Positions 24,054 to 27,934 of a stretch of DNA of 43,371 nt are shown in pieces. Every line of letters starts with the position of its first letter. Position 1 is the stretch's first letter. This DNA comes from Candidatus Woesearchaeota archaeon (lineage in GTDB: Archaea > Nanobdellota > Nanobdellia > Woesearchaeales > J072). The DNA lies in the NCBI GenBank assembly GCA_003695265.1, contig RFII01000047.1:1-43371 (forward strand). Reading direction: 5' to 3'. The translations under genes and the position numbers were made by a program. A model generated the notes under the pieces. It searched no databases. It was not told the origin of the DNA and worked only from the letters and a program-made list of their open reading frames with translations.

Positions 24054-25391
24054 ATGTTAGAAGAAAAGATTGGTTGCAACGCAGAGTATGACAGAGCAAG
24101 AGTCGTGTTAGTACATACACCCAATGTTGAACTCGCAATAGGAACAGAATGCGCTAAAGGCTCACTGTTTGAAGGACCACTCAATTTTAGAGAAGTAAAG
24201 AAAGAACATGACAGGTTTAAATCCAAACTCAGAAATAAAGGTATTAAAGTAATTGACATAACTGATGTTTTGTTAGATGGGACAAGAGACCAAAATGGAA
24301 ATCCTGTTGACAGCCCAAGTCTTGATGCCCTTAGAGAATTTGCAAACCAATCATTAAAGTATGATTACAAAACAGATGGAAATAACAAGTTTTCTCAAGA
24401 TGAAATAGACAGATTTGAAGCAGCAAAAAGAATTTCTATCCAGATGGCAGAGCCAGAGCAGTTACTTGATATTATTCTAAGAAGGCCTTTGAAAATCATT
24501 GAAAAAGTTGACATAAACACAAATTATGTTACAAAAAACATGGAAAGCCCGCTCTACAACTTAATGTTTATGAGGGACCAGATGATAACAACAGATAAAG
24601 GTATTGTTCTCGGTTCAATGAACTCAGAGCAGAGAAGATTGGAAACAGAAATAGTGAAGTTTGTTCTTGATAAGATAGGAATCAAGCCAGTGTATGTGTT
24701 CTCAGAGCAGGATGGGAAGCTGGAAGGAGGTGACTTCATCCCTGCAGGAGACCATGCTTTCTTAGGACAAGGGCTGAGGACTAACAGCAAAGGAGTCCAA
24801 ACCCTATTAGCAAAAAGAACAATGTCTTTCCCCACTGTTTATATTGTGAAAGACGGCCATAAAGAGCAGGATGAAATGCATCTTGACACTTATTTTAATA
24901 TTGTCAGCAGAAAAAAAGCTGTTATTTTAAAGACAAGGCTTGACGACCCAAAAACAAGGATTGATGTTTACACACTTCAGCATGACGGGACTTATGAAAG
25001 AACTTCTGAAAACCTTTCTTTCAGGCAAGTATTATCCAAGGAGGGATATTCTTTTGTTGAGTTTGACACAGACATCCAAAGGTTGTATGGTGTTAATCTT
25101 CTCACCGTTGAAGAGGGTGATTTTATAGGAGTCCATATCGGAAATAAAGTAAATCTCAGAAACCAGCTGAACAAGATACAACAAAGATTGGGATTTTCTC
25201 TCGATGATGGAATATCAAAATACACTCCAAAGGAAATAATGATCGTTCACAGAGATTATGTTGCAAGGCTTCAAGAGCTTATTGGTGCTGATAGCCCTTC
25301 AATAATAGAAGAAAAACTGCTTTGTTTTAACCATCTCAACCAGGCGTACGGCGGTCCTCACTGCCTAACACAGGTTATCTCGCGAGGCTAG
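24054..25391 (+). CDS. Arginine-deiminase-like guanidino-group-modifying enzyme
   Basis: 445 aa from the ATG at 24054. ADI-pattern blocks: VVLVHTPNVEL, KKEHDRFKSKL, NLMFMRDQ, LEGGDFIP, MHLDTYFN, and the C-terminal catalytic Cys in GGPHCLTQV. Confidence 0.85.
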   Translation: MLEEKIGCNAEYDRARVVLVHTPNVELAIGTECAKGSLFEGPLNFREVKKEHDRFKSKLRNKGIKVIDITDVLLDGTRDQNGNPVDSPSLDALREFANQSLKYDYKTDGNNKFSQDEIDRFEAAKRISIQMAEPEQLLDIILRRPLKIIEKVDINTNYVTKNMESPLYNLMFMRDQMITTDKGIVLGSMNSEQRRLETEIVKFVLDKIGIKPVYVFSEQDGKLEGGDFIPAGDHAFLGQGLRTNSKGVQTLLAKRTMSFPTVYIVKDGHKEQDEMHLDTYFNIVSRKKAVILKTRLDDPKTRIDVYTLQHDGTYERTSENLSFRQVLSKEGYSFVEFDTDIQRLYGVNLLTVEEGDFIGVHIGNKVNLRNQLNKIQQRLGFSLDDGISKYTPKEIMIVHRDYVARLQELIGADSPSIIEEKLLCFNHLNQAYGGPHCLTQVISRG

Positions 25392-25392
25392 A

Positions 25393-27114
25393 ATGGAAAA
25401 ATTCAAGGAAATTGTTATAAAAATATTAGAGGATTACTTTGGCAACACTTTTAGCAGGGAAGAGCTTGAGAGCAGTGTTAAAATTCAAGATGTAAGTGGG
25501 AAAAAAAGAAATCCTAATTTTGGGGAGATAGCATACCAAATATTTGATTTTGCAAAGCTGTGCGAGCTTAACGACGCTTCCTCACTAGCAAGAGAAGTCG
25601 CTGATGAATTAACATTGGATGAGAGGATAAGCAGAGTCGAGGCTGTTGGGCCGTACATAAATTTTCATTTTGATAGAAATGCTCTTATTGAGGGAATACT
25701 TAATGAGGTTGAAGAAGAAGGGGAAAAGTTTGGAAGCAATAACTCAGGTGAAGGAAAATTAGTTGTCCTTGATTATTCCGCACCAAACATAGGCAAGCCG
25801 CTTCATGTAGGGCATATAAGGTCCACTATTCTTGGAGACAGCATAATCAGAATTCTTAATTTCAACGGCTACAAAACTCACGGCATTAATTATTTGGGTG
25901 ACGTGGGTCTTCATATAGGCAAGATAATTTATGCTTTTAAGCAGTGGGGTGACAGCGCTAAGATTGAAGCAAACCCCGAGCAGGAAATACTTGACCTTTA
26001 CATTAAGTTCTGTAAATTGGAAGAGAAAGATGAGGCTCTTACTAAAAAAGCAAAAAAGGAGGTAGAGCTTCTTGAGAAAGGAGACCTTGAATCAAAAAGA
26101 ATTCACAGATTCATTGAGGAGATGAGTTTAAGGGCTTTTGATAGGGTTTATGACATGCTGAATGTGTCCTTTGATGAAACAACAGGCCAAAGCCGTTTCT
26201 CAGAGAAAGGAAAACAGGTAATCCATGAGGCTCTTAAAAAAGGAAAGGCAGAGCTTACTGAGGACGGCGCAGTAGCTGTTGATCTGTCAGAATACGGCCT
26301 TCCGAGAAAGATGGTTCTGAGGAGTGATGGAACTGCTATTTACAGCACTCAGGACATAGGGGCTGCAATTCACAGAAAAGAAAGATTTGATTTTGACAAG
26401 TTGCTATATGTTGTGGCCACAGAGCAAGAGCTTTATTTCAAGCAGCTTTTTGCGATTCTTGACAAGTTTGGATATAAATGGGCTAAAAATTGCTTTCACG
26501 TTAATTTTGGTATGATAAATCTTCCTGAGGGAAGAATGTCAACACGTGAAGGAGCACTAGTTTATTTGGAGGAAGTCTTAAACAAGTCAATTGATGCTGC
26601 GCGCAGAATAATCGAGGAAAAAAGTCCAGGCATTCCAAACAAGGACGAAGTTGCTAGGATGGTTGGCGTCGGCGCAGTAAAGTACATGGTGCTAAGCGTG
26701 GATTATTCAAAACCAATAGAATTCAGTTGGGACCGCGCATTAAACATTGAAGGAAATTCAGCCCCCTACATTCAGTATTCATTTGCGAGAGCTAACAGTA
26801 TTTTAGAGAGGATTGGAAGAAAGCCTGAAGGCTTTTCTCCTGAGCATTTAGACACTGATATAGAATTTGATCTTGTCCGGAAGATTGGAATGCTTCCGAC
26901 AGCCGTAAAGTTTGCTGGTTTAGGTTATAAGCCGCACATCATCGCGAATTATGCTAATGAGCTTTCTGGAATGTTTAACACTTTTTACAACAAGGTGCGC
27001 GTAAAAGACTCGGGAGAAAAATTAGGCTCAAGGCTAAGACTTGTTTCTGCTTACATGACAGCTGTTCAGAATGCAATGAGCCTGCTTGGAATAAAAATGC
27101 CAAGGAAAATGTAA
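25393..27114 (+). CDS. argS: Arginyl-tRNA synthetase, copy 2 (divergent paralogue)
   Basis: GPYINFHF, HVGHIRS, SDGTAIYSTQDIG, GRMSTREG, SAPYIQYSFAR, C-terminal ...PRKM. Starts 1 nt after the stop of the ADI-like gene. Confidence 0.9.
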   Translation: MEKFKEIVIKILEDYFGNTFSREELESSVKIQDVSGKKRNPNFGEIAYQIFDFAKLCELNDASSLAREVADELTLDERISRVEAVGPYINFHFDRNALIEGILNEVEEEGEKFGSNNSGEGKLVVLDYSAPNIGKPLHVGHIRSTILGDSIIRILNFNGYKTHGINYLGDVGLHIGKIIYAFKQWGDSAKIEANPEQEILDLYIKFCKLEEKDEALTKKAKKEVELLEKGDLESKRIHRFIEEMSLRAFDRVYDMLNVSFDETTGQSRFSEKGKQVIHEALKKGKAELTEDGAVAVDLSEYGLPRKMVLRSDGTAIYSTQDIGAAIHRKERFDFDKLLYVVATEQELYFKQLFAILDKFGYKWAKNCFHVNFGMINLPEGRMSTREGALVYLEEVLNKSIDAARRIIEEKSPGIPNKDEVARMVGVGAVKYMVLSVDYSKPIEFSWDRALNIEGNSAPYIQYSFARANSILERIGRKPEGFSPEHLDTDIEFDLVRKIGMLPTAVKFAGLGYKPHIIANYANELSGMFNTFYNKVRVKDSGEKLGSRLRLVSAYMTAVQNAMSLLGIKMPRKM

Positions 27115-27115
27115 G

Positions 27116-27934
27116 ATGAACCCTGTCCAAGCATTAAAGGACTTGAGCCACCCAAACAAAGAAAGAAGAGAAGAAGCATACCAAAAAGTGCGTGAGTACT
27201 TGGTTTCGATTGATCCTGATGTTGATCCTTATTTTCAGCAGTTCTTCAGGAAAGTTTCTGCTTATGAGGGAAAATTAGCCAGAGAACTAACAAAGCTCGC
27301 TGTTAATGTTATTGAAGGTCCGGAAATAAAACACGAAGCAGAACTTCGCTCTTTAGCTGATTTTAGGCTAAAGGAGAAAGAGCTTAATGAGGCGTTTGCG
27401 TTTTACAAAAAAGTATCGCCCCTTTTTCCTTCTCTAGATTACGTGGTTGATCTGTGCTGCGGAAACGGACTAAACGGCATGCTGTGGGTTTTGCAAGGCA
27501 ACGCAAAAAAAGCAGTCTCAATAGACAGGGAGGAAAATCCTAATTTTGAAAGGGTGAGAAGAAGAATTCTTGAGTGTGGAAACTTAAACCAGGAAAGCAT
27601 TGTTTTTTATCAGAAAGACATCTATGAGCCATTACCTATTCTTACAGGCAAAGGCCTTATTATTTCCATACATGCTTGTGGAGAGCTAACTGACAAAGTG
27701 ATTGATTCAAGCATTGGTCATAGCTTGCCTTTTGCAGTTATGCCCTGCTGCCATGATTATGAAAACAAAAGCGATTATATTATTCCACAAATCTTGAGGT
27801 ATTTTGATATTGGAATTGCAATTGATATAATGCGAGCAATTCATATCCACCAAGCAGGTTATGATATAATTCTAAGGAGAATCTCAGAGAAAATAACAGA
27901 AAAAAATCTGATATTAATAGGAAAACCAAGATAA
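27116..27934 (+). CDS. SAM-dependent methyltransferase (Methyltransf_32-like)
   Basis: 272 aa. Motif I VVDLCCGNGLNG; later SIHACGELTD and MPCCH, resembling the HACGDL-type family. Starts 1 nt after the argS copy 2 stop. Confidence 0.7.
   Translation: MNPVQALKDLSHPNKERREEAYQKVREYLVSIDPDVDPYFQQFFRKVSAYEGKLARELTKLAVNVIEGPEIKHEAELRSLADFRLKEKELNEAFAFYKKVSPLFPSLDYVVDLCCGNGLNGMLWVLQGNAKKAVSIDREENPNFERVRRRILECGNLNQESIVFYQKDIYEPLPILTGKGLIISIHACGELTDKVIDSSIGHSLPFAVMPCCHDYENKSDYIIPQILRYFDIGIAIDIMRAIHIHQAGYDIILRRISEKITEKNLILIGKPR

What the first reader, a model, noticed from the sequence alone, without database searches (positions are those of the whole stretch)
24054..27934. Translationally coupled operon: arginine-deiminase-like enzyme, second ArgRS, SAM methyltransferase
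Seen in the sequence:
- Three plus-strand genes are separated by single nucleotides: TAG-a-ATG at 25389-25395 and TAA-g-ATG at 27112-27118. They are almost certainly co-transcribed and co-translated.
- The first gene keeps all catalytic blocks of the guanidino-group-modifying superfamily (FMRDQ, EGGD, MHLDTYF, GGPHCLT).
- The second is a complete ArgRS (HVGH, MSTR, DALR end) that duplicates the housekeeping-looking copy 9 kb upstream.
- The third is a Methyltransf_32-like enzyme (DLCCGNG, HACGELTD) of unknown substrate.

From established knowledge, classical ADI operons pair arcA with arcB (OTC), arcC (carbamate kinase) and an antiporter, not with an aminoacyl-tRNA synthetase and a methyltransferase.

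Three readings are possible, all inference:
- An Arg-tRNA-dependent pathway in which the deiminase-like or methyltransferase enzymes act on Arg-tRNA or on a transferred arginyl group.
- A DDAH-like/methyl-arginine function.
- An arginine-analogue-insensitive ArgRS kept next to arginine catabolism.

This is my best candidate for an undescribed system in the window.
Basis: partly seen in the sequence, partly recalled or inferred. Interest (0 to 1): 0.7.

Follow-up and report, generated by a model that had tools for sequence, protein, structure and literature searches.

The report
Conserved DPANN arginine deiminase–ArgRS–methyltransferase operon
Three tightly packed genes (a divergent arginine deiminase, an intact arginyl-tRNA synthetase and an orphan methyltransferase) form an arginine gene island, with argG/argH alongside, that recurs in many tiny DPANN archaea; it most likely manages the cell's arginine supply and is not a new kind of system.

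Summary
Three + strand genes lie at 24054-25391, 25393-27114 and 27116-27934, separated by 1-nt spacers, and every quoted motif is present.

The neighbourhood is conserved. The deiminase-like gene (ADIL) is followed at -4 to +5 nt by an ArgRS in 7 distinct archaeal loci including the window, and lies near one in 4 more. The methyltransferase (MT32) is present in 6 of these 11, and argH-argG is usually convergent.

ADIL is structurally an arginine deiminase. Its 26 best PDB fold matches are all ADIs. It keeps the catalytic residues and both arginines that clamp the substrate's free alpha-carboxylate, which argues against Arg-tRNA as substrate. Its bacterial relatives sit in OTC-permease-ADIL operons.

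ArgRS2 and ArgRS1 both keep the catalytic invariants. In other DPANN lineages an ArgRS1-type enzyme occupies the island instead (ADIL…argG-argH|ArgRS).

MT32 has no informative structural or sequence relative.

An ADI cluster containing argS is already known in Lactococcus lactis. My best reading is therefore an arginine partitioning and homeostasis island, a new variant of a known kind. The open points are the role of MT32 and the reason for two ArgRS genes.

The parts
24054..25391 (+). ADIL: a divergent arginine-deiminase-family enzyme (445 aa). It has the complete ADI catalytic and substrate-binding set (N169, F172, R174, D175, R194, E197, E224, D227, R242, H276, D278, H436, C437) and a clade-specific helical insertion at about residues 362-412.
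   Evidence: Pfam ADI 137.7 bits. NCBIfam arcA below cut-off. AF2 model pLDDT 95.6. Foldseek top 26 hits are all ADIs, TM 0.63-0.75. Residue correspondence to PaADI. Insertion.
25393..27114 (+). ArgRS2: a complete class I arginyl-tRNA synthetase (573 aa; HVGH, MSTR, DALR, Add-1 domain), translationally coupled to ADIL.
   Evidence: TIGR00456 460.8 bits. All catalytic invariants of canonical ArgRS are kept in its clade. It falls in a clade of ADIL-linked ArgRS.
27116..27934 (+). MT32: a class I SAM-dependent methyltransferase of the Methyltransf_32 (METTL25-like) family with an N-terminal helical domain. Invariant cysteines are C114, C188 (HACG) and C211/C212 (PCC). Substrate unknown.
   Evidence: Pfam 30.6 bits against cut-off 27. 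Alignment invariants. AF2 pLDDT 87.6. Foldseek gives only generic MTase matches. No PDB sequence relative.
27935..29122 (-). argH (argininosuccinate lyase), convergent with the operon. Its stop codon abuts the MT32 stop codon.
   Evidence: TIGR00838 350.9 bits. The same convergent arrangement occurs in L025, L164, L165 and L166.
29125..30378 (-). argG (argininosuccinate synthase), upstream of argH in the same minus-strand operon.
   Evidence: NF001770 550 bits. Synteny.
30516..31151 (+). Putative amino-acid-sensing regulator (DUF7523-like N-terminus plus ACT_7 domain), divergent from argG and conserved at this position in relatives.
   Evidence: Weak Pfam hits to ACT_7 (24.2 bits) and DUF7523, both below cut-off. 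Homologous neighbours in L164, L165, L166 and the P0169 locus.
23675..24053 (+). Upstream intergenic region presumed to hold the operon promoter. A GAGGT lies about 10 nt before the ATG. There is no AsnC/Lrp regulator gene here, unlike most relatives.
   Evidence: Sequence read. AsnC-type gene upstream of ADIL in 10 or more related loci. The promoter assignment is inference only.
16257..17972 (+). ArgRS1: the second, equally intact ArgRS (31% identical to ArgRS2). In other DPANN lineages this type sits in the island as ADIL…argG-argH|ArgRS.
   Evidence: ArgRS1-type in L083, L092 and L169.
18076..18858 (+). Agmatinase/arginase-fold (ureohydrolase) gene directly after ArgRS1. Another arginine-related gene.
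   Evidence: TIGR01230 agmatinase 143.8 bits, below cut-off 174.3.
19501..19585 (+). tRNA-Arg(UCG) gene with a 16-nt insertion (probable non-canonical intron) in the D-loop.
   Evidence: Rfam tRNA 55.7 bits; anticodon loop CUUCGGA. ARAGORN mis-called the anticodon.

Best explanation
The three genes are the core of a conserved DPANN 'arginine island' that partitions and balances the cell's arginine.

Shown:
- The first gene encodes a divergent arginine-deiminase-family enzyme that keeps the complete catalytic and substrate-binding residue set.
- It is co-transcribed and translationally coupled with a fully canonical ArgRS and, in about half the lineages, with an orphan Methyltransf_32 methyltransferase.
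- An argG-argH operon lies convergent to it. Relatives add OTC or NAGK.
- An ACT-domain regulator lies beyond argG, and in relatives an AsnC/Lrp regulator lies in front of the operon.

Inferred mechanism:
- Free L-arginine taken up by the symbiont is either charged onto tRNA-Arg by the co-made ArgRS or deiminated to citrulline plus NH3 by ADIL.
- Citrulline is recycled to arginine by ArgG/ArgH. In relatives it can pass to OTC.
- Fixed co-expression of a low-Km consumer (ArgRS) and an overflow consumer (ADI) would give cheap homeostasis in a minimal genome.

The ArgRS in the island is probably an ordinary working ArgRS, not a specialised non-translational paralogue. This genome happens to keep two types. 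The methyltransferase acts on an unknown arginine-related or RNA substrate.
For: Synteny:
- ADIL|ArgRS at -4 to +5 nt in the window, L001/L003, L002/L004, L025, L163, L164, L165 and L168.
- With small inserted genes in L080 and L166, and divergent in the P0169 locus.
- Five more pairs share contig lengths between the ADIL and ArgRS hit lists. This is indirect.
- MT32 is present in the window, L025, L163, L165, L166 and the P0169 locus.
- argH-argG is convergent in the window, L025, L164, L165 and L166. It is co-directional as ADIL…argG-argH in L029, L083, L092, L114, L127, L128 and L169, with an ArgRS1-type ArgRS after argH in L083, L092 and L169.

Enzyme identity:
- Foldseek ADIs at E 1e-24 to 6e-18, against 1e-10 for NnhA, DDAH and AGAT.
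- All PaADI catalytic and carboxylate-clamp residues are conserved.
- Bacterial relatives lie in OTC|amino-acid permease|ADIL operons (L043, L046, L155-L159), and these ADILs are the closest neighbours of the ArgRS2-linked archaeal ADILs in an NJ tree.
- The ArgRS2 clade keeps N132, K135, H138, G140, H141, R143, D170, Y317, D321, Q345, H369, R385, Y462, R466, Y532 and M573.

Other:
- L163 adds further arginine/ornithine-type genes: a second GME-fold protein, an AlaDH/PNT-like protein, a class III aminotransferase and a TiaS-like protein.
- Precedent: argS is part of the L. lactis arc operon (PMC7818446).
Against: - No OTC, carbamate kinase or arginine/ornithine antiporter was seen in the 43-kb window. 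phmmer with an OTC query found nothing. Carbamate kinase was not searched with a dedicated query and was judged only by reading the ORF translations. An energy-yielding ADI pathway is therefore unproven here.
- ADI plus ArgG plus ArgH alone is an ATP-consuming cycle.
- ADIL scores far below the curated arcA threshold (81 against 489 bits), and no member of this clade is known to me as characterised. The real substrate is inferred.
- The explanation gives MT32 no role and does not explain why this genome keeps two intact ArgRS genes.
- The third gene position varies between relatives: X305, ATP-grasp, a GME-like protein or a 110-aa ORF.
- A clade-specific helical insertion in many ArgRS-coupled ADILs might indicate a more specific partnership.
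Confidence: 0.6

Rival explanations
1. ArgRS2 is a specialised isoenzyme, for example with higher arginine affinity, analogue insensitivity or specificity for one isoacceptor. It is co-induced with the deiminase so that tRNA-Arg charging survives while arginine is being destroyed. ArgRS1 is the constitutive housekeeping enzyme.
For: The window carries two intact ArgRS genes that are only 31% identical. The ArgRS2 clade deviates from canonical conservation mainly in the N-terminal Add-1 (tRNA D-loop-binding) domain: P38, P62, G86 and Y88F. ArgRS2 is translationally coupled to ADIL.
Against: In other DPANN lineages the ArgRS1 type itself sits in the island (L083, L092, L169). Either type can therefore be 'the island ArgRS'. 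No second ArgRS was seen within +/-8-10 kb of any other island. No dedicated tRNA-Arg lies near the relatives' islands. Two copies per genome have been shown only for this window.
Confidence: 0.15
2. The island runs a methylarginine cycle. MT32 methylates arginine, either free or in protein. ADIL and/or the small DDAH-like paralogues hydrolyse methylarginines to citrulline. ArgG/ArgH then regenerate arginine, as in the eukaryotic PRMT-DDAH-ASS-ASL route.
For: Small DDAH-like genes occur in two islands. In L165 one lies between ArgRS2 and MT32, and in the P0169 locus one lies about 5 kb from MT32. L163 has a second, weakly GME-like protein. argG/argH are always nearby. A secondary DDAH_eukar Pfam hit falls on ADIL.
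Against: ADIL has the ADI-type pocket (two Asp, HLD motif) and an ADI-specific helical domain, and DDAH structures rank far below ADIs. The window has no DDAH-like gene. MT32 shows no similarity to PRMTs or to known arginine N-methyltransferases.
Confidence: 0.08
3. The system is Arg-tRNA-dependent. ArgRS2 supplies Arg-tRNA-Arg to ADIL and/or MT32, which modify the esterified arginine or the tRNA, or transfer the arginyl group.
For: Tight coupling of a synthetase with two modifying enzymes. A helical insertion is shared by many ArgRS-coupled ADILs. MT32 has invariant Cys residues after beta4 and beta5, positions that by my own analogy (from memory, not tested here) resemble motifs IV and VI of RNA m5C methyltransferases. 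Partial Foldseek matches to RumA, RlmCD and TrmR. A TiaS-like gene lies in the L163 island.
Against: ADIL keeps both alpha-carboxylate-clamping arginines, which would clash with an esterified carboxylate. No ADIL-ArgRS fusion proteins appear among the hits, judged from their lengths. No dedicated tRNA gene lies in the relatives' islands. MT32 is absent from about half the islands. The Foldseek matches are generic (TM about 0.4).
Confidence: 0.07
4. The adjacency has no functional meaning and simply reflects compact-genome packing.
For: DPANN genomes are dense, and 0-4 nt junctions are common. Here the convergent MT32 and argH stop codons abut.
Against: The same pair recurs in 11 distinct loci whose ADILs are only 32-42% identical, and the neighbours are other arginine genes.
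Confidence: 0.02

Closest known systems
Lactococcus lactis arc (arginine deiminase) gene cluster containing argS (PMC7818446)
   Same: An ADI gene and the arginyl-tRNA synthetase gene lie in one arginine-regulated cluster, with arginine-responsive regulators nearby.
   Different: The L. lactis cluster carries arcB, arcC1/C2, arcD1/D2 and arcT. The window has none of these, and instead has a Methyltransf_32 gene and convergent argH-argG. The ADI here is a deeply divergent clade (arcA model 81 against 489 bits). The ADI to ArgRS coupling at about 1 nt is specific to the DPANN version.
Classical arcABC(D) arginine deiminase pathway operon (e.g. P. aeruginosa, Halobacterium salinarum arcRACB)
   Same: The same enzyme fold and catalytic residues for the first step. 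Bacterial relatives of ADIL sit in OTC-permease-ADIL operons.
   Different: No carbamate kinase was seen in the archaeal islands (not searched with a dedicated query). OTC occurs only in L025. The island pairs ADI with the anabolic argG/argH genes.
Eukaryotic DDAH/NOS - ASS - ASL citrulline-arginine recycling, and the formally analogous purine nucleotide cycle (from established knowledge)
   Same: A guanidino-modifying hydrolase that makes citrulline sits next to argininosuccinate synthase and lyase, which remake arginine. The net chemistry would be Asp to fumarate plus NH3 at the cost of ATP.
   Different: The hydrolase here is ADI-type, not DDAH or NOS. No evidence shows that the cycle operates as such.
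Auxiliary or duplicated aminoacyl-tRNA synthetases tied to a metabolic partner (e.g. Deinococcus TrpRS II with nitric oxide synthase; recalled from memory, not checked here)
   Same: A second aaRS copy is encoded beside an enzyme that consumes the same amino acid.
   Different: No evidence of a physical complex here. In most related lineages the island ArgRS may be the only copy.
Methyltransf_32 / METTL25 family (PF13679)
   Same: The motif I DxCxGxG, HACG and PCC signatures, with a Pfam hit just above the gathering threshold.
   Different: The archaeal proteins have a distinct N-terminal helical domain. I found no paper assigning a function to any member, so the comparison gives no function.

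Membership tests
Arginine deiminase (EC 3.5.3.6, guanidino-group-modifying enzyme superfamily) | Pentein alpha/beta propeller fold with the ADI-specific helical insertion domain | tested here: met
   AF2 model pLDDT 95.6. The 26 best Foldseek PDB hits are all ADIs (E 1.8e-24 to 5.6e-18, TM 0.63-0.75). DDAH, AGAT and NnhA score only about 1e-10.
Arginine deiminase (EC 3.5.3.6, guanidino-group-modifying enzyme superfamily) | Catalytic Cys/His/Glu plus the two guanidinium-binding Asp (PaADI C406, H278, E224, D166, D280) | tested here: met
   C437, H276, E224, D175 and D278 are invariant in 30 family members and align to the PaADI residues.
Arginine deiminase (EC 3.5.3.6, guanidino-group-modifying enzyme superfamily) | Arginines that bind the free alpha-carboxylate of L-arginine (PaADI R185, R243) | tested here: met
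   R194 is invariant and R242 is conserved in 90% or more of members. PaADI R401 is replaced by Tyr432.
Arginine deiminase (EC 3.5.3.6, guanidino-group-modifying enzyme superfamily) | Score above curated equivalog thresholds (NCBIfam TIGR01078 arcA / NF002381) | tested here: not met
   81.3 bits against 489.1, and 89.5 against 414. The Pfam PF02274 threshold is met (137.7 against 22.8). ADIL is therefore a member of the ADI Pfam family but not of the curated arcA equivalog.
Arginine deiminase (EC 3.5.3.6, guanidino-group-modifying enzyme superfamily) | Hydrolysis of L-arginine to citrulline plus NH3 | not testable with these tools
   Requires an enzyme assay.
Classical ADI pathway operon (arcA-arcB-arcC-arcD) | Catabolic OTC, carbamate kinase and arginine/ornithine antiporter encoded with arcA | tested here: not met
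   None was seen in the window. phmmer with OTC and APC-permease queries found nothing, and carbamate kinase was judged only by reading the ORF translations. OTC is adjacent in L025. OTC plus permease accompany ADIL in bacterial loci L043, L046 and L155-L159.
Arginyl-tRNA synthetase (class Ia) | Catalytic Rossmann domain with HIGH and a KMSKS-like (MSTR) motif, DALR anticodon-binding domain and N-terminal Add-1 domain, above the argS equivalog cut-off | tested here: met
   TIGR00456 460.8 against 261.65. PF00750, PF05746 and PF03485 all above their cut-offs. HVGH and MSTR seen in the sequence.
Arginyl-tRNA synthetase (class Ia) | Retention of residues that are universally conserved in working ArgRS | tested here: met
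   Of 58 columns conserved at 90% or more in 98 canonical ArgRS, 39 are equally conserved in the ADIL-linked clade, including all those in the catalytic core. The deviations are conservative or lie in the Add-1 domain.
Arginyl-tRNA synthetase (class Ia) | Aminoacylation of tRNA-Arg | not testable with these tools
   Requires an assay.
Methyltransf_32 (PF13679, METTL25-like class I SAM methyltransferases) | Pfam model above the gathering score, and a Rossmann-like seven-strand fold with glycine-rich motif I | tested here: met
   30.6 bits against 27, so marginal. The L025 orthologue scores 31.0. Motif D112-x-C114-x-G116-x-G118 is invariant. The AF2 model has seven strands in the predicted methyltransferase domain. 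Foldseek hits are class I MTases.
Methyltransf_32 (PF13679, METTL25-like class I SAM methyltransferases) | Known substrate or reaction | not testable with these tools
   I found no paper assigning a function to any member. There is no PDB sequence relative.
DDAH (dimethylarginine dimethylaminohydrolase) | A propeller of about 250-290 aa without the helical domain, and closest similarity to DDAH structures | tested here: not met
   ADIL is 445 aa and has the helical domain. DDAH matches cover only residues 165-264 and rank well below ADIs.

The most novel reading that the evidence does not exclude
The coupling is physical, not just genetic. In the ADIL|ArgRS2 clade, the helical insertion in ADIL docks onto ArgRS2. 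MT32 is a tRNA-Arg-directed (or ArgRS-associated) pyrimidine-C5-type RNA methyltransferase, suggested by its invariant Cys residues after beta4 and beta5, which by my own untested analogy recall the two catalytic cysteines of RNA m5C methyltransferases. The operon would then tie tRNA-Arg charging and modification directly to arginine availability. It would also give the first functional clue for the orphan METTL25/Methyltransf_32 family.
Probability: 0.12. Interest if true: 0.75.

Novelty: new variant of a known kind. Interest (0 to 1): 0.45.

Why it matters
DPANN archaea are ultra-small symbionts with stripped-down metabolism, so the gene sets they keep and pack tightly show what they cannot do without. 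This island indicates that controlling arginine (charging it, destroying it and remaking it from citrulline) is a conserved, co-regulated task in Woesearchaeota/Nanoarchaeota-type lineages.

The work gives three concrete handles:
- A large, uncharacterised clade of ADI-family enzymes, with 429 relatives confirmed among the pattern matches in the reference-genome collection and more than 500 in the metagenome collection, both in bacteria and archaea. Its activity should be tested.
- Two alternative ArgRS types that swap in and out of the same island. This is a natural experiment in synthetase replacement, with one genome caught holding both.
- An orphan methyltransferase family related to human METTL25 whose only contextual clue so far is this arginine/ArgRS neighbourhood.

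The finding does not require a new kind of system. An ADI cluster that contains argS already exists in Lactococcus.

Tried and rejected
- **Arg-tRNA as the ADIL substrate.** Rejected as the leading idea because both carboxylate-clamp arginines are conserved.
- **DDAH, amidinotransferase or agmatine deiminase identity for ADIL.** Rejected on fold ranking and length.
- **Arginine synthetase (ArcE).** I wrongly recalled it as an ATP-grasp enzyme and thought it might relate to the ATP-grasp neighbour in L002. The paper does not describe ArcE as ATP-grasp (the term is absent; its homologues resemble cyclic 2,3-diphosphoglycerate synthase), so I dropped the link.
- **Function of MT32.** A PDB sequence search with the family profile gave nothing below E = 0.05. 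Foldseek gave only generic class I MTases at TM about 0.4. Literature on Methyltransf_32 and METTL25 gave no function. The word-indexed homologue search returned only 10 proteins.
- **Taxonomy of ArgRS1 relatives.** The representative search gave 150 ids without names, and the cluster look-up returned no organism names. I could not decide which ArgRS type is ancestral.
- **Halobacterium pNRC200 argS/arc adjacency.** Two tblastn searches of PLSDB hit 13 Halobacterium records, but they were not among the listed rows, so I dropped this. Only the statement that the sole argS is on pNRC100/200 is cited.
- **Dedicated tRNA-Arg near the islands.** None in 14 related loci.
- **Gene fusions of ADIL with ArgRS.** None is evident from protein lengths in the hit lists. 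The only fusion found joins ADIL to the unknown X265 protein, in L080.
- **Bacterial neighbourhoods of ADIL outside the Caldisericota-type loci.** Rikenellaceae, Geobacter and Syntrophales show no conserved arginine genes.
- **Bacterial promoter/terminator scan.** Not run, because it does not model archaeal signals.

Full report
**1. Observation**

The ORF map and direct sequence reads confirm three + strand genes:
- 24054-25391: ADI-like, here called ADIL (445 aa).
- 25393-27114: ArgRS2 (573 aa).
- 27116-27934: the methyltransferase, here called MT32 (272 aa).

The junctions are TAG-a-ATG and TAA-g-ATG, and purine-rich ribosome-binding motifs lie inside the upstream gene.

Family scans give the following:
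- ADIL: Pfam ADI 137.7 bits, but NCBIfam arcA only 81 bits against a cut-off of 489.
- ArgRS2: argS 460.8 bits against a cut-off of 261.65.
- MT32: Methyltransf_32 30.6 bits against a cut-off of 27.

ArgRS1 (16257-17972) is a second complete ArgRS, 31% identical to ArgRS2.

MT32's stop codon abuts the stop codon of a convergent argH (27935-29122). argH is preceded by argG (29125-30378), and beyond argG lies a divergent ACT-domain protein (30516-31151).

**2. Is the arrangement conserved?**

The ADIL family is large. A pattern scan confirmed 429 relatives in reference genomes and 502 in metagenomes. Most are bacterial (Rikenellaceae, Geobacteraceae, Syntrophales, Armatimonadia, Caldisericota and others), with an archaeal subset. 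I called ORFs in the fetched loci (170 by the end) and searched them with the window's proteins.

*Type A loci.* ADIL is followed directly by an ArgRS2-type gene in these loci:

| Locus | Organism, if named | ADIL to ArgRS gap |
|---|---|---|
| Window | – | 1 nt |
| L001/L003 | Nanoarchaeota | 0 nt |
| L002/L004 | Nanoarchaeia | 1 nt |
| L025 | Woesearchaeota | -4 nt |
| L163 | – | -4 nt |
| L164 | – | 1 nt |
| L165 | – | 5 nt |
| L168 | Woesearchaeota; a more divergent ArgRS scoring only slightly higher against ArgRS2 than ArgRS1 | 1 nt |

- In L080 and L166, one or two small unknown genes (X265, X127) lie between ADIL and ArgRS.
- In the P0169 locus the two genes are divergent.
- Five further ADIL/ArgRS pairs share contig lengths between the two hit lists. 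This is indirect evidence.

MT32 is present in the window, L025, L165, L166, L163 and the P0169 locus. In the window, L025 and L166 it follows ArgRS2 directly. In L165 it follows an intervening DDAH-like gene. In L163 it lies further down a longer operon. In the P0169 locus it follows a BtpA gene.

Where MT32 is absent, the third gene is X305 (L001, L168), an ATP-grasp gene (L002) or a 110-aa ORF (L164). In L163 a second GME-like gene takes the third position and MT32 lies further down the operon.

argH-argG is convergent in the window, L025 (with OTC), L164, L165 and L166 (with NAGK).

*Type B loci.* L029, L083, L092, L114, L127, L128 and L169 have AsnC-ADIL…argG-argH on one strand. In L083, L092 and L169 an ArgRS1-type ArgRS follows argH. 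In L169 it overlaps argH.

*Regulators.* An AsnC/Lrp-type regulator precedes ADIL in 10 or more archaeal loci. The window lacks it.

The pair is therefore conserved across lineages whose ADILs are only 32-42% identical. The triad is conserved in roughly half of them.

**3. What the proteins are**

*ADIL.*
- The AlphaFold model is confident (pLDDT 95.6).
- Its 26 best PDB fold matches are all arginine deiminases (E 1.8e-24 to 5.6e-18; TM 0.63-0.75). NnhA, DDAH, AGAT, SxtG and StrB1 follow at about 1e-10 or weaker.
- A family profile aligned to P. aeruginosa ADI shows conservation of N160, F163, R165, D166, R185, E188, E224, D227, R243, H278, D280, H405 and C406. In ADIL these are N169, F172, R174, D175, R194, E197, E224, D227, R242, H276, D278, H436 and C437.
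- From established ADI structural work, R185 and R243 bind the free alpha-carboxylate of L-arginine. Their conservation argues for a free amino acid substrate and against Arg-tRNA or peptidyl-arginine. This is inference.
- In bacteria of the Caldisericota type, ADIL sits in OTC | amino-acid permease | ADIL operons with a convergent M20 peptidase (L043, L046, L155-L159). In an NJ tree these ADILs are the nearest neighbours of the ArgRS2-linked archaeal ones. That context is the classical arcB-arcD-arcA logic.
- ADIL is thus best called a divergent, probably genuine arginine deiminase. It is not a member of the curated arcA equivalog.
- Many of the directly ArgRS-coupled ADILs (window, L003, L004, L025, L164, L165) share an extra helical hairpin at about residues 362-412. 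The other family members aligned lack it, including L163, which is also directly ArgRS-coupled, and L080 and L166.

*ArgRS2.*
- In an NJ tree it falls in a clade of ADIL-linked ArgRS (P0122-P0139, L003, L004, L025). That clade is next to other DPANN ArgRS (sequences named Woesearchaeota, Pacearchaeota and 'archaeon') and to Bacillota ArgRS at 40-44% identity. ArgRS1 groups with the L092 and L075 enzymes.
- I took 58 alignment columns conserved at 90% or more in 98 canonical ArgRS. Of these, 39 are equally conserved in the ADIL-linked clade, including every catalytic-core position.
- The deviations are conservative or lie in the N-terminal Add-1 domain (P38, P62, G86, Y88F).
- ArgRS1 matches the consensus at almost all 58 columns. 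Both genes therefore look like working synthetases.

*MT32.*
- It has a class I Rossmann methyltransferase core behind a helical domain of about 100 residues (pLDDT 87.6).
- Invariant residues include motif I (D112, C114, G116, G118), D137, H186-A-C188-G after beta4, and P210-C211-C212 after beta5.
- Foldseek returns only generic matches: plant and bacterial O-methyltransferases, plus RumA, RlmCD and TrmR, at TM about 0.4.
- A profile search finds no PDB relative.
- The literature I could search gives no function for Methyltransf_32 or METTL25.
- Bacterial homologues (239 aa) sit in unrelated contexts (L167).
- The position of the two cysteine motifs resembles motifs IV and VI of RNA m5C methyltransferases. 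That is my own analogy from memory, not a test.

**4. Surroundings in the window**

The window is archaeal, with proteasome alpha and exosome Rrp4/41/42-like ORFs and Woesearchaeota/Nanoarchaeota best hits. It is unusually rich in arginine genes:
- ArgRS1, followed by an agmatinase-fold gene (18076-18858).
- A tRNA-Arg(UCG) with a 16-nt D-loop insertion (19501-19585).
- The ADIL-ArgRS2-MT32 operon, argH-argG and the ACT regulator.

No OTC or arginine/ornithine antiporter was detected in the 43 kb. I saw no carbamate kinase when reading the ORF translations, but I did not search for it with a dedicated query.

**5. Mechanism**

The best-supported reading is an arginine partitioning and homeostasis island.
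- *Shown:* the conserved synteny, the tight coupling, the ADI-type active site, intact ArgRS genes, and neighbouring argG/argH and regulators.
- *Inferred:* ADIL deiminates free arginine. ArgRS and ADIL compete for the same pool in a fixed expression ratio. Citrulline is recycled through ArgG/ArgH, or passed to OTC where OTC is present. AsnC- and ACT-type regulators sense amino acids.

Either ArgRS type can occupy the island in different lineages (type A against type B). This suggests that the island ArgRS is normally the cell's working enzyme, and that this genome is a case of two co-resident types.

Weaknesses of this reading:
- ADI plus ArgG plus ArgH alone is an ATP-consuming cycle.
- MT32 has no assigned role.
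- The reason for two ArgRS genes is unexplained.

The rivals (specialised isoenzyme, methylarginine cycle, Arg-tRNA-dependent chemistry, coincidence) are weighed in their own sections.

**6. Comparison with what is known**

The L. lactis arc operon contains argS (PMC7818446). In Halobacterium NRC-1 the sole argS lies on the pNRC100/200 replicons (PMC1447603). From memory, and not verified here, the arc genes lie there too.

The DPANN arrangement differs in four ways:
- It pairs a deeply divergent ADI with ArgRS by translational coupling.
- It adds an orphan methyltransferase.
- It sits next to the anabolic argG/argH genes instead of arcB/arcC/arcD.
- It exists in two versions that use different ArgRS types.

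A DPANN comparative-genomics paper reports ArcA only in Micrarchaeota, and reports ArgG/ArgH as absent outside Altiarchaeota and Micrarchaeota (PMC8407392). The Woesearchaeota/Nanoarchaeota island seen here appears not to have been described there.

**7. Verdict**

The finding is real, conserved and modestly novel. It is a new variant of a known kind (an ADI/arginine cluster that includes argS), not a new system. Interest is 0.45. The unexplained parts that keep it from being routine are the role of MT32, the ADIL insertion and the dual ArgRS.

Noticed in passing
window 19501-19585 (+): A tRNA gene that ARAGORN could not type. Its anticodon loop reads CUUCGGA, so it is tRNA-Arg(UCG). It carries a 16-nt insertion in the D-loop, probably a non-canonical intron. 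It lies between the ArgRS1/agmatinase pair and the queuosine genes.
   Followed up: partly
window 16257-18858 (+): ArgRS1 is followed about 100 nt later by an agmatinase/arginase-fold gene (TIGR01230 143.8 bits, below cut-off). This is a second small arginine-related cluster, 5 kb upstream of the operon.
   Followed up: partly
window 20265-22901: Bacterial-type queuosine genes in an archaeal window: tgt (376 aa, TGT 465 bits) overlapping queA (369 bits) on the + strand, and queH (206 bits) on the - strand. Archaea normally make archaeosine instead, so this suggests lateral acquisition of the Q pathway.
   Followed up: partly
window 30516-31151 (+); L164 12580-13212; L165 12451-13080; L166 13807-14430: A protein of about 210 aa with a DUF7523-like N-terminus and a C-terminal ACT_7 domain (weak Pfam hits). 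It lies beside the argG-argH unit in the window and at least four related loci: next to argG in the window, L164 and L165, and next to NAGK in L166 and the P0169 locus. It is a candidate amino-acid-sensing regulator of the island.
   Followed up: partly
window 27932-27937; L165 9846/9847: The stop codons of the convergent MT32 and argH genes abut with zero intergenic bases. This leaves no room for separate terminators, and the same is true in L165.
   Followed up: no
window 25137-25289 (ADIL residues about 362-412): A helical-hairpin insertion in the last propeller blade. It is shared by ADILs that are directly coupled to ArgRS2 (window, L003, L004, L025, L164, L165). The other aligned ADILs lack it, including the ArgRS2-linked L163, L080 and L166.
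   Followed up: partly
L080 1405-3381; L166 5945-7112; P0169 locus: Two unknown proteins (X265 and X127, no Pfam hits) lie between ADIL and ArgRS2 in some islands. In L080, X265 is fused to the C-terminus of ADIL, a Rosetta-stone link to an uncharacterised partner.
   Followed up: partly
L163 6670-15935: An extended operon: ADIL | ArgRS2 | second weak GME-fold protein (376 aa) | TiaS-like (TCKD+FLD, 319 aa) | AlaDh_PNT_N protein (381 aa) | MT32 | Asp/Glu racemase, with a convergent class III aminotransferase. The GME-like and AlaDH/PNT-like pair resembles a split AgrE/ArgZ arginine dihydrolase-ornithine cyclodeaminase.
   Followed up: no
L001 3818-4735; L168 10269-11093; L163 16024-16821 (-): A recurring unknown protein of about 270-305 aa (X305, no Pfam hit). 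It takes the place of MT32 directly after ArgRS in two islands and lies nearby in a third.
   Followed up: no
L002, L163, L164, L165, L168, L169 (3-8 kb upstream of ADIL): One or two large Ser/Thr protein kinase genes, a protein of about 310 aa with an AbrB/MazE-like domain on the opposite strand, and AsnC-type regulators recur upstream of the island in relatives. None of these is present upstream in the window, where an SdpI/DUF1648 membrane protein (23039-23674) sits instead.
   Followed up: no
L043, L046, L155-L159; L001-L004: An M20-family peptidase gene accompanies ADIL both in the bacterial OTC-permease-ADIL operons (convergent) and in two archaeal ADIL|ArgRS2 islands. It may supply arginine from peptides or N-acylated precursors.
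   Followed up: no
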